Origin: Escherichia coli
Lineage (GTDB): Bacteria; Pseudomonadota; Gammaproteobacteria; Enterobacterales; Enterobacteriaceae
Length of the DNA stretch: 64,000 nt
Direction: 5' to 3' (one strand)
Assembly: GCF_030013205.1 (NCBI RefSeq)
Contig: NZ_CP122648.1
The position numbers and the translations under genes are program-made. Shown here in pieces: positions 35,631-35,690 of this stretch (within the stretch, counting starts at the first letter, position 1; each line of letters begins with the position of its first letter). The notes beneath the pieces were generated by a model. It saw nothing but the letters and a program-made list of their open reading frames with translations. It made no database searches and had not been told where the DNA came from.

Positions 35631-35690
35631 ACGGACACAACGTGAAACAACGAGACACAACGACGAACAACGGCGAACAATCTGGAACAA
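35631..35690. repeat. six tandem 10-bp repeats (cgNNNAACAA) downstream of int
   Basis: acggacacaa/cgtgaaacaa/cgagacacaa/cgacgaacaa/cggcgaacaa/tctggaacaa, in helical phase. Confidence 0.7.

What the first reader, a model, noticed from the sequence alone, without database searches (positions are those of the whole stretch)
35631..35690. Six tandem 10-bp repeats in helical phase between int and alpA
The units cgNNNAACAA repeat six times with exact 10-bp periodicity, directly downstream of the integrase stop and about 290 bp upstream of alpA. Phased repeats put every site on the same face of the helix, typical of cooperative binding by a small DNA-binding protein. This may be the control region for alpA or for excision.
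Basis: seen in the sequence. Interest (0 to 1): 0.5.

Follow-up and report, generated by a model that had tools for sequence, protein, structure and literature searches.

The report
Phased AlpA-type operator array in PICI
The six 10-bp repeats are real, are conserved in a widespread family of E. coli phage-satellite islands, and reuse the units found beside the integrase sites at both island ends, so they are most likely the docking array for the island's small excisionase/activator AlpA.

Summary
Window 35631-35690 holds six head-to-tail 10-bp units (consensus CGWGRAACAA, ACAA invariant). It is the strongest short-period signal in the 64-kb window.

The window is E. coli. The repeats lie in a 14.7-kb Gram-negative PICI inserted in yifB/comM, close kin of the studied island EcCICFT073. 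The array (4-6 units, always in 10-bp register) is conserved in related PICIs at three other integration sites. About 16% of complete E. coli genomes carry the int-spacer-alpA module.

The same units, some as identical 10-mers, form 3-4-unit arrays inside both att arms. There they sit beside 12-bp doublets that match the Int arm-site layout of P4-family integrases. Three phased units occur nowhere else in this island or in EcCICFT073.

AlpA is a winged-helix excisionase-fold protein. The units share GTTCGTC/GTTCGCT heptamers with mapped binding sites of the excisionase TorI. The published AlpA-activated promoter fragment of EcCICFT073 contains the whole array.

Best reading (confidence about 0.6): a cooperative AlpA operator that links alpA autoactivation to excision, as in the dual-function excisionases 186 Apl, P2 Cox and TorI. 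Binding itself is untested. This is a new member of a known kind, of moderate interest.

The parts
35631..35690 (+). The array: six 10-bp units, consensus CGWGRAACAA. On the other strand the units read TTGTTCnnnn, with a GTTC core.
   Evidence: conserved in L001-L003, L006-L010, L013
34380..35609 (+). int, a P4-family tyrosine integrase with an N-terminal arm-DNA-binding domain. The GTG start follows the RefSeq homologues; an ATG lies at 34392.
   Evidence: Arm-DNA-bind_3 PF13356 E 2.7e-17; Phage_integrase PF00589
35977..36165 (+). alpA, encoding a 62-aa winged-helix excisionase/activator and the proposed binder of the units
   Evidence: PF05930 E 3.4e-18; fold nearest to GIsul2 excisionase 8c3t, RdfS, Pukovnik Xis, TorI
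34289..34328 (-). attL-arm array of four units: TTGTTCCAGC TTGTTCCACG TTGTACCCCT TTGTGCAATG. Its orientation is inverted relative to the int-alpA array.
34332..34355 (+). attL-arm 12-bp doublet GGTGTAGTCACT GGTGTAGTCATT, the proposed Int arm-type sites, centred 148 bp from the core centre
   Evidence: same layout as the P4 'attP arm sequence repeat', CP4-57 and the HE-PICI doubled motif
48769..48798 (-). attR-arm array of three units: TTGTGTCTAT TTGTTCCACG TTGTTGCATA
   Evidence: the same array is present in the EcCICFT073 attR
48812..48835 (+). attR-arm 12-bp doublet GGTGTAGTTAAT GGTGTAGTCAAT, centred 85 bp from the core centre
34188..34203 (.). attL core copy ATTATCAATAGCGGAT. The native yifB sequence ends at 34203.
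   Evidence: (yifB match ends at query base 54)
48901..48916 (.). attR core copy ATTATAAATAGCGGAT. The 3' part of yifB resumes here.
35717..35729 (-). Perfect match to the IHF consensus WATCAANNNNTTR, 27 nt downstream of the array. By eye, a perfect match also sits at the homologous place in CFT073.
   Evidence: pattern match only
35791..35812 (.). Conserved 8-9-bp hairpin GCGTAAAA/TTTTACGC between the array and alpA. It is terminator-like on the minus strand. Relatives keep it through changes on both sides of the stem.
   Evidence: z = -3.1
35886..35914 (+). Sigma-70-like promoter TTGCCA-17-CACAAT, a candidate PalpA. It is found at the homologous position in CFT073, L001 and L002 despite a 10-bp indel.

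Best explanation
The array is a DNA-level operator. It consists of six binding units on one face of the helix, for head-to-tail cooperative binding of the island's own winged-helix excisionase/activator AlpA. Shorter arrays of the same units (3-4) lie in both att arms, directly beside the 12-bp Int arm-type doublets, where AlpA would act as the recombination directionality factor. When a helper phage switches on alpA, AlpA would fill the long array upstream of its own gene, possibly helped by the adjacent IHF-type bend, and raise its own transcription. It would also fill the att-arm arrays and drive Int-mediated excision.

Shown here:
- The repeat exists, its register is conserved, and its units are shared with both att arms and occur nowhere else in the island.
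- AlpA has an excisionase fold.
- The published AlpA-responsive fragment of EcCICFT073 includes the array.

Inferred:
- That AlpA, rather than Int or a host protein, binds the units.
- That binding at the array causes the autoactivation.
- That the difference in unit number (6 versus 3-4) orders the two events.
For: (1) Periodicity is far beyond chance.
(2) Conservation has a binding-site signature. In 53 units from 10 islands, ACAA is 53/53, position 6 is A in 39/53, position 4 is only G or C, and positions 1-3 and 5 vary. Unit number changes only in steps of 10 bp.
(3) Identical 10-mers (CGTGAAACAA, CGTGGAACAA, CGACGAACAA) occur both in arrays and in att arms. Three phased units occur only at attL, the array and attR, both in the 64-kb window and in the whole of EcCICFT073.
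(4) The 12-bp doublets next to the arm arrays match the P4-family Int arm-site layout: the P4 annotated arm repeats, CP4-57 and HE-PICIs. That assigns Int its own, different sites and leaves the 10-bp units for a second protein.
(5) AlpA belongs to PF05930. Its model is closest to solved excisionases and MerR-type winged helices.
(6) In the literature, recombination directionality factors bind direct repeats one helical turn apart, at att and at promoters (186 Apl, PMC7498355; RdfS, PMC11963761).
(7) The mapped TorI sites in KplE1 attL are ACAGTTCGTC ATGGTTCGCT TCAGATCGTT at exact 10-bp spacing (PMC2951348). They share GTTCGTC and GTTCGCT with PICI units (TTGTTCGTCG in the array; TTGTTCGCTC and TTGTTCGTCA in L004/L011 attL).
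(8) P4 has three TCCG units at 10-bp spacing directly beside its Int doublet.
(9) AlpA activates the alpA promoter fragment of EcCICFT073 and is needed for excision (PMC6092414). The primers of that fragment bracket the array, and the CFT073 sequence has six units there.
Against: - No binding data exist for any AlpA from a Gram-negative PICI.
- The only sigma-70-like promoter is about 200-260 bp downstream of the array, with a hairpin in between, too far for a classical activator.
- In EcCICFT073, AlpA had no effect on a Pint fusion that includes the attL-arm units.
- Islands at the cspD-yljB site (L004, L005, L011) keep the arm units and the doublets but carry other AlpA alleles (about 60% identical). 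They have no long array, only two units upstream of alpA in L004/L005 and none in L011. The arm units therefore track the Int clade at least as well as they track AlpA.
- TorI is only a distant relative of AlpA (hhalign E 0.002; Pfam E 0.16).
- In P4-like satellites, 10-bp repeats upstream of vis vary while Vis stays the same. A phased array upstream of an alpA-family gene is therefore not evidence of binding on its own.
Confidence: 0.6

Rival explanations
1. The units are Int arm-type sites. The N-terminal arm-binding domain of the integrase would bind the ACAA units at both att arms and at the array. At the array, Int might block read-through from int into alpA or regulate itself.
For: Int has an Arm-DNA-bind_3 domain. 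Arm-type sites are also phased direct repeats. The arm units stay the same across islands whose Int is 74-87% identical, even where the AlpA allele differs. The array sits immediately after int.
Against: P4-family integrases use 12-bp doublets on both sides of the core (P4, CP4-57, HE-PICI). This island has exactly such doublets (GGTGTAGTCA) with an unrelated sequence, and one arm-binding domain is not expected to read two unrelated motifs. The array is 1.44 kb from the attL core. The units resemble mapped excisionase sites, not the TAAA-type arm sites of IntS.
Confidence: 0.15
2. A host protein that binds phased direct repeats reads the units, for example an OmpR/PhoB-family response regulator or a nucleoid protein. 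The island would use it as an architectural or regulatory factor.
For: Winged-helix response regulators bind 10-11-bp direct repeats (general knowledge, not tested here). The int-alpA spacer is AT-rich (39.8% GC, against 49-52% in the flanking genes). H-NS silences alpA in Shewanella CP4So (PMC5148205).
Against: Three phased units are found only at the three island sites in 64 kb of E. coli chromosome. Their fixed position beside the Int doublets in both arms points to a recombination partner encoded by the island. No known regulator consensus was matched.
Confidence: 0.07
3. The array works at the RNA level. It would be a CA-rich 3' UTR of the int mRNA that pairs with the complementary TTGTTCC units upstream of int, or that binds an RNA chaperone.
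For: The attL-arm units are the reverse complement of the array units (13 of 14 pairs for TTGTTCCACGTTGT against ACAACGTGAAACAA, read).
Against: The third copy, in attR, lies outside any int transcript. The array RNA is no more structured than shuffled sequence (z = -0.1; +1.6 with flanks). Arm and array units do not change together across islands. Islands L004, L005 and L011 keep the arm units without any array. Rfam gave no match.
Confidence: 0.03
4. The units are replication iterons, or the array is a neutral slippage microsatellite.
For: The repeats are tandem and their number varies (4-6 units). P4 has 10-bp 'ori type 2 repeats' upstream of vis.
Against: Array-bearing islands carry different replicases with the same units: RepA helicase in the window, L002 and L006, and primase in L001, L003, L008 and CFT073. 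PICI origins lie 3' of the replicase gene (PMC6092414). A neutral microsatellite would not keep ACAA invariant across about 20% flanking divergence, nor recur in both att arms.
Confidence: 0.03

Closest known systems
Coliphage 186 Apl (and P2 Cox): dual-purpose excisionase/regulator operators
   Same: The operators are direct repeats spaced 10-11 bp apart. Seven lie at pR-pL, and similar repeats lie at attP. Binding is cooperative and head to tail, and needs at least three adjacent units (PMC7498355). The present island has the same logic of one unit type at att and at a control region.
   Different: Apl and Cox belong to another protein family. Their operator array lies between face-to-face promoters and represses them. 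Here the array is about 200-260 bp upstream of the candidate promoter, and the documented effect of AlpA is activation.
TorI sites I3-I5 in KplE1/CPS-53 attL
   Same: Three mapped excisionase sites lie at exact 10-bp spacing with a GTTCG/GATCG core. They share GTTCGTC and GTTCGCT heptamers with PICI units. TorI has the same winged-helix fold class as AlpA.
   Different: TorI is only distantly related to AlpA. Its sites abut the -35 box of PintS and repress int. No separate array upstream of torI is known.
Satellite phage P4 attP and Vis
   Same: Vis is an AlpA-family protein that acts as both excisionase and regulator and binds attP (Cali 2004, as cited in PMC2603039). P4 attP has 12-bp Int doublets on both arms and three TCCG units at 10-bp spacing beside one of them. 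This is the same module order as here.
   Different: The unit sequence differs, and int and vis are far apart in P4. The P4 10-bp 'type 2 repeats' upstream of vis vary independently of Vis, so they are not the counterpart of this array.
HE-PICI doubled motif tgTGTATTGCantgTGTATTGCa (Mageeney et al. 2023)
   Same: It consists of 12-bp doublets at about -81 and +132 from the attP centre. Here the doublets GGTGTAGTCAnT lie at -85 and +148.
   Different: That paper reported the motif as unique to HE-PICIs and described no 10-bp unit arrays. In those islands alpA follows int after about 50-70 nt, with no array.
ICEMlSymR7A RdfS
   Same: It is a winged-helix excisionase that binds attP next to an Int arm site and also binds its own promoter, forming filaments (PMC11963761).
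   Different: No sequence motif could be defined for RdfS, and it represses its own promoter.

Membership tests
Operator array of a dual-function recombination directionality factor (Apl/Cox/TorI/Xis type) | Three or more direct repeats spaced one helical turn (10-11 bp) apart | tested here: met
   Six units at exactly 10 bp; 4-6 units in relatives.
Operator array of a dual-function recombination directionality factor (Apl/Cox/TorI/Xis type) | The same recognition units are present in the att site, next to the Int arm-type sites | tested here: met
   Four units in attL and three in attR, directly 5' of the 12-bp doublets. Identical 10-mers are shared with the array.
Operator array of a dual-function recombination directionality factor (Apl/Cox/TorI/Xis type) | The element encodes a small winged-helix excisionase that is needed for excision | tested here: met
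   AlpA is in PF05930 with an excisionase fold. The excision requirement was shown by experiment for the near-identical AlpA of EcCICFT073 (98% identical).
Operator array of a dual-function recombination directionality factor (Apl/Cox/TorI/Xis type) | The protein binds the units cooperatively and bends the DNA | not testable with these tools
   This needs EMSA or footprinting. No published mapping was found.
Operator array of a dual-function recombination directionality factor (Apl/Cox/TorI/Xis type) | The array controls a promoter | tested here: inconclusive
   The AlpA-activated fragment of EcCICFT073 includes the array. However, the only sigma-70-like promoter lies about 200 bp downstream of the array.
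Arm-type sites of P4-family integrases | 12-bp doublets on both sides of the core, at roughly 75-150 bp | tested here: not met
   The array has 10-bp units, six in a row, 1.44 kb from the core. The GGTGTAGTCA doublets do fit this feature.
PICI or P4 replication iterons | Located at the origin 3' of the replicase gene and specific to the initiator | tested here: not met
   The array lies between int and alpA. The same units occur with both RepA-helicase and primase replicases.
AlpA binding element of the Pseudomonas aeruginosa AlpA antiterminator | A single GGGACG element between the -35 and -10 boxes, read by a Q-like AlpA of more than 140 aa | tested here: not met
   This AlpA has 62 aa and a different fold class. 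There is no GGGACG element. Only the name is shared.
Gram-negative PICI (EcCICFT073 type), for the island as a whole | int-alpA-(Bro/Icd zone)-replicase-late genes, all rightward, about 10-20 kb, with its own att site | tested here: met
   Gene order and size fit. The int-alpA region matches the EcCICFT073 primers with 0-1 mismatch, and the relatives are annotated alike.

The most novel reading that the evidence does not exclude
The six-unit array is the highest-affinity AlpA site of the island and works as a threshold device. Because cooperative excisionases bind longer arrays at lower concentration, AlpA would first fill the array and lock in its own expression. It could do so by remodelling or counter-silencing the AT-rich 370-bp spacer together with IHF, acting from about 250 bp upstream. 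Only at a higher level would AlpA fill the 3-4-unit arrays in the att arms and trigger excision. Under this reading the unit-number polymorphism (4-6 units) would tune how easily different islands are induced by helper phages.
Probability: 0.2. Interest if true: 0.6.

Novelty: new member of a known kind. Interest (0 to 1): 0.45.

Why it matters
AlpA is the master switch of Gram-negative phage-inducible chromosomal islands. It is necessary and sufficient for excision and induction, and it activates its own gene. In the literature I could search, its DNA targets have not been mapped.

This analysis gives a concrete, testable site map for a module carried by about one in six complete E. coli genomes, including the model island EcCICFT073:
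- a 10-bp unit (CGWGRAACAA) present at three places, namely the array and both att arms;
- separate 12-bp Int doublets;
- IHF-like sites.

It also extends the doubled arm motif, previously reported as unique to helper-embedded PICIs, to this clade, to P4 and to CP4-57. The mechanism itself, an excisionase that doubles as a regulator through phased direct repeats, is well known, so the gain is a specific prediction rather than a new principle.

Tried and rejected
1. Two scans of the species-representative genome collection with Int, once as a single protein and once as an alignment, returned no relatives. Comparative evidence is therefore limited to E. coli genomes and IMG/VR contigs.
2. AlpA antitermination as in Pseudomonas aeruginosa was rejected. 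That AlpA is a larger, Q-like protein with a single GGGACG site.
3. I looked for co-variation in HE-PICI-type islands. There alpA follows int within about 50-70 nt and no array exists, so those islands cannot tell Int from AlpA as the binder.
4. I tested the idea that phased 10-bp arrays upstream of alpA-family genes are general. A P4-like contig has CAACAAGGGC x4 about 190 bp upstream of vis. However, across 61 P4-like loci these repeats change while Vis stays 97-99% identical. They are not Vis sites, and the likeness is probably coincidental.
5. CP4-57 of K-12 has no such array near alpA, so the feature is specific to this clade.
6. A pattern scan of IMG/VR for four phased units gave 120 listed hits. 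Only 10 were this int-array-alpA module, so the pattern alone is not specific in very large collections.
7. Rfam found no RNA family in the int-alpA spacer.
8. No literature was found on the DNA sites of the GIsul2 excisionase (PDB 8c3t), the closest solved homologue.

Full report
**Observation.** Window 35631-35690 reads ACGGACACAA CGTGAAACAA CGAGACACAA CGACGAACAA CGGCGAACAA TCTGGAACAA. Identity at lag 10 is 36/50. The other lags from 1 to 25 give 11-43%, apart from the lag-20 harmonic at 65%. For every lag from 4 to 20, the best 60-nt stretch in the whole 64-kb window is this one (38/50, against a maximum of 29 in 200 shuffles). Tandem Repeats Finder reports a period of 10 or 20 here. The array starts 21 nt after the int stop (35607-35609) and ends 286 nt before the alpA GTG (35977). 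ACAA is invariant, and the overall consensus is CGWGRAACAA.

**Context.** The window is E. coli and is 100% identical to strain ETEC1748 over the region. The array lies in a 14.7-kb island inserted in yifB/comM. Native yifB ends at 34203 and resumes near 48901, and the island is flanked by the direct repeat ATTAT(C/A)AATAGCGGAT. The gene order is int, alpA, a Bro/Ant-type gene, a RepA-type helicase and late-type genes, all rightward. This is the organisation of a Gram-negative phage-inducible chromosomal island (PICI; PMC6092414, PMC10111431). Int has an Arm-DNA-bind_3 domain and a catalytic domain. AlpA is a member of PF05930.

**Conservation.**
- 877 of 5,426 complete E. coli genomes hold at least 80% of the 2.1-kb int-array-alpA stretch.
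- I read the region in islands at four integration sites: tqsA (L001, L003, L010), roxA (L002, L007, L009, CFT073 L013) and yifB (L006, L008, and the window itself). All have 4-6 units immediately after int, always in exact 10-bp register (one island has a mutated unit).
- Over 53 units, ACAA is 53/53, position 6 is A in 39/53, position 4 is only G or C, and the other positions vary.
- Flanking DNA is only about 80-86% identical. The periodic core is therefore under constraint and the array is not coding.
- A pattern scan of IMG/VR recovered ten more copies of the same module.

**The key finding: the units are not confined to the array.**
- ACAA-N6-ACAA-N6-ACAA occurs at only three places in the window, against 0.02 expected: 34289-34322 (minus strand), the array (plus strand), and 48769-48792 (minus strand).
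- The two outer places lie just inside attL and attR. Each is followed, 5-14 bp further on, by a 12-bp doublet: GGTGTAGTCACT GGTGTAGTCATT at 34332-34355 and GGTGTAGTTAAT GGTGTAGTCAAT at 48812-48835. These doublets occur nowhere else in the window without mismatch.
- The same two modules are in the attL arm of every relative and in the attR arm of EcCICFT073.
- In the whole of EcCICFT073, three phased units again occur only at attL, the array and attR.
- Array and arms share identical 10-mers: CGTGAAACAA, CGTGGAACAA and CGACGAACAA.
- One DNA-binding specificity therefore serves all three places.

**Which protein binds?**
- *The doublets belong to Int.* The 12-bp doublets have the layout of Int arm-type sites in the P4 family. 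The P4 record annotates 'attP arm sequence repeats' as 12-bp doublets on both sides of the core (AGTGGGGGCACA AAAGGGGGCATA and ATTGGGGGCATA ATTGGGGGCATC), centred about 75 and 134 bp from the core centre. CP4-57 has TAGGCCCATTGA TAGGCCCAACGA before intA. Mageeney et al. described a doubled TGTATTGC motif at -81 and +132 in helper-embedded PICIs. Here the doublet centres are at -85 and +148. Int thus has its own sites, which leaves the unrelated 10-bp units to a second protein.
- *AlpA is the obvious second protein.* It is the only other conserved recombination protein. Its model (pLDDT 86.7) is closest to the GIsul2 excisionase 8c3t (TM 0.83-0.90), then to RdfS, Pukovnik Xis, TorI, BldC and MerR-type winged helices.
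- *Its family binds this kind of site.* Recombination directionality factors bind head to tail to direct repeats one helical turn apart. Several also act as regulators, with similar repeats at att and at promoters (186 Apl with seven operators, PMC7498355; RdfS).
- *The units resemble mapped excisionase sites.* The TorI sites in KplE1 attL read ACAGTTCGTC ATGGTTCGCT TCAGATCGTT at exact 10-bp spacing. Read on the same strand, PICI units are TTGTTCGTCG (array), TTGTTCGCTC and TTGTTCGTCA (L004/L011 attL), and TTGTTCCACG (window arms).
- *P4 shows the same module order.* Three TCCG units at 10-bp spacing lie directly beside its Int doublet.

**Link to experiment.** Fillol-Salom et al. showed that AlpA of EcCICFT073 activates its own promoter region, is required for induction, and suffices for excision and replication. 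They also showed that helper phages switch alpA on. The primers for their PalpA-lacZ plasmid pJP2038 match the window at 35577 (1 mismatch, in the 3' end of int) and at 36014 (0 mismatches, inside alpA). The CFT073 sequence between these primers carries a six-unit array. The array is therefore inside the only fragment for which AlpA-dependent activation has been shown. The sites themselves have not been mapped in the literature I could search.

**Other features of the spacer.**
- A perfect IHF-consensus match lies 27 nt after the array (35717-35729). By eye, the homologous CFT073 sequence is also a perfect match. One-mismatch sites lie in both att arms.
- A conserved hairpin at 35791-35812 (z = -3.1) is kept in relatives through changes on both sides of the stem.
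- A promoter-like TTGCCA-17-(C/A)ACAAT sits about 60 nt before alpA, at the homologous position in four islands, despite a 10-bp indel.
- The array centre is thus roughly 255 bp upstream of the likely transcription start. How it would act on transcription (bending, wrapping or counter-silencing of the 39.8% GC spacer) is inference only.

**Cautions.**
- Islands at the cspD-yljB site (L004, L005, L011; Int 74-76% identical) keep the arm units and the doublets. They carry other AlpA alleles (about 60% identical) and lack the long array. L004 and L005 have two units about 125 nt before alpA, and L011 has none. The recognition-helix and wing residues of the alleles are largely conserved, so shared specificity is plausible. 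Even so, these islands do not separate AlpA from Int as the binder.
- AlpA did not change expression of a Pint fusion that includes the attL arm.
- TorI is only a distant relative of AlpA.
- In P4-like satellites, the 10-bp repeats upstream of vis vary while Vis is constant. Such arrays are therefore not automatically sites for the neighbouring protein.

**Rivals.**
- Int binding to the units (0.15) fails the P4-family arm-site layout, and the array is 1.44 kb from the core.
- A host factor (0.07) cannot be excluded, but it does not explain why the units are exclusive to the island or why they sit beside the Int sites.
- An RNA-level role (0.03) is contradicted by the attR copy, by the lack of RNA structure, and by the lack of joint change between arm and array units.
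- Iterons or a neutral microsatellite (0.03) are contradicted by identical units occurring with different replicases and by the constraint pattern.

**Verdict.** The array is best explained as the AlpA operator of an EcCICFT073-type PICI, built from the same units as the excisionase sites in both att arms. It is a new, well-defined member of a known kind of system, the phased operators of dual-function excisionases. Its value lies in giving a concrete site map for the master regulator of a common E. coli satellite.

Noticed in passing
window 34204-48900: A 14.7-kb PICI is inserted in yifB/comM and splits the gene. The 5' fragment ends at 34203 and is annotated as a pseudogene in relatives. Related islands use tqsA, roxA and cspD-yljB. 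Their similarity to this island begins exactly at the island junction (query base 55), so the arm is conserved while the core target differs.
   Followed up: partly
window 34332-34355 and 48812-48835; P4 L134 3942-3965 and 4151-4174; L255 1091-1114: 12-bp doublets flank the att core in this PICI, in P4, in CP4-57 and in HE-PICIs. The doubled motif reported as unique to HE-PICIs therefore looks like a general format for Int arm sites in the P4 family, with clade-specific sequence.
   Followed up: partly
window 35791-35812: A conserved hairpin (GCGTAAAA / TTTTACGC) lies between the array and alpA. It has an A-run before it and, in relatives, a T-run after it. It scores as a terminator on the minus strand and is kept through changes on both sides of the stem. 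Its role is unknown: it could end int read-through, end an antisense transcript, or be part of a leader.
   Followed up: partly
window 35918-35933: The pentamer ACCCA occurs three times in tandem, within a CA-rich stretch between the promoter-like site and the alpA ribosome-binding site. Relatives have ACACAA/CCCAA variants at this place.
   Followed up: no
L256-L316 (P4-like satellites), about -180 to -190 and -270 from vis; P4 L134 9176-9205: The P4 'ori type 2 repeats' (3-4 x 10 bp) are hypervariable between satellites whose Vis is 97-99% identical. Examples are GCTTTAAGTG, TTCCAGnnnn, ATTCGACACC, TTTGCCGA and CAACAAGGGC. Some other specificity determinant must read them.
   Followed up: partly
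L134 (P4) 3966-3995, minus strand: Three TCCG units at exact 10-bp spacing (cTTCCGAGGT TGTCCGTTGA AATCCGGATA) lie directly upstream of the P4 Int arm doublet. They are candidate Vis sites and are not annotated in the record.
   Followed up: no
L011 1905-2678: In the cspD-yljB island of strain UTAK-13, a 257-aa ORF overlaps the int stop codon and fills the space between int and alpA. This recalls the 'integrase-overlapping gene' (iolg) needed for excision in Vibrio PICMIs (PMC10803314).
   Followed up: no
L110, L032, L029, L104, L095, L098, L089, L119: Several HE-PICI-type loci carry two alpA homologues in tandem directly after int.
   Followed up: no
window 42935-43528 and 43593-44276: Two adjacent ORFs match different parts of one PHROG (phrog_6216: profile positions 405-545 and then 115-326), in swapped order. 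The second ORF also weakly matches a head maturation protease. This may be a rearranged or split gene.
   Followed up: no
window 33500-33750 (minus strand): An Rfam match to RF02744 (Rev39 5' UTR; 123.6 bits, above the gathering score) falls in the ilv leader region upstream of ilvG. It is unrelated to the island.
   Followed up: no
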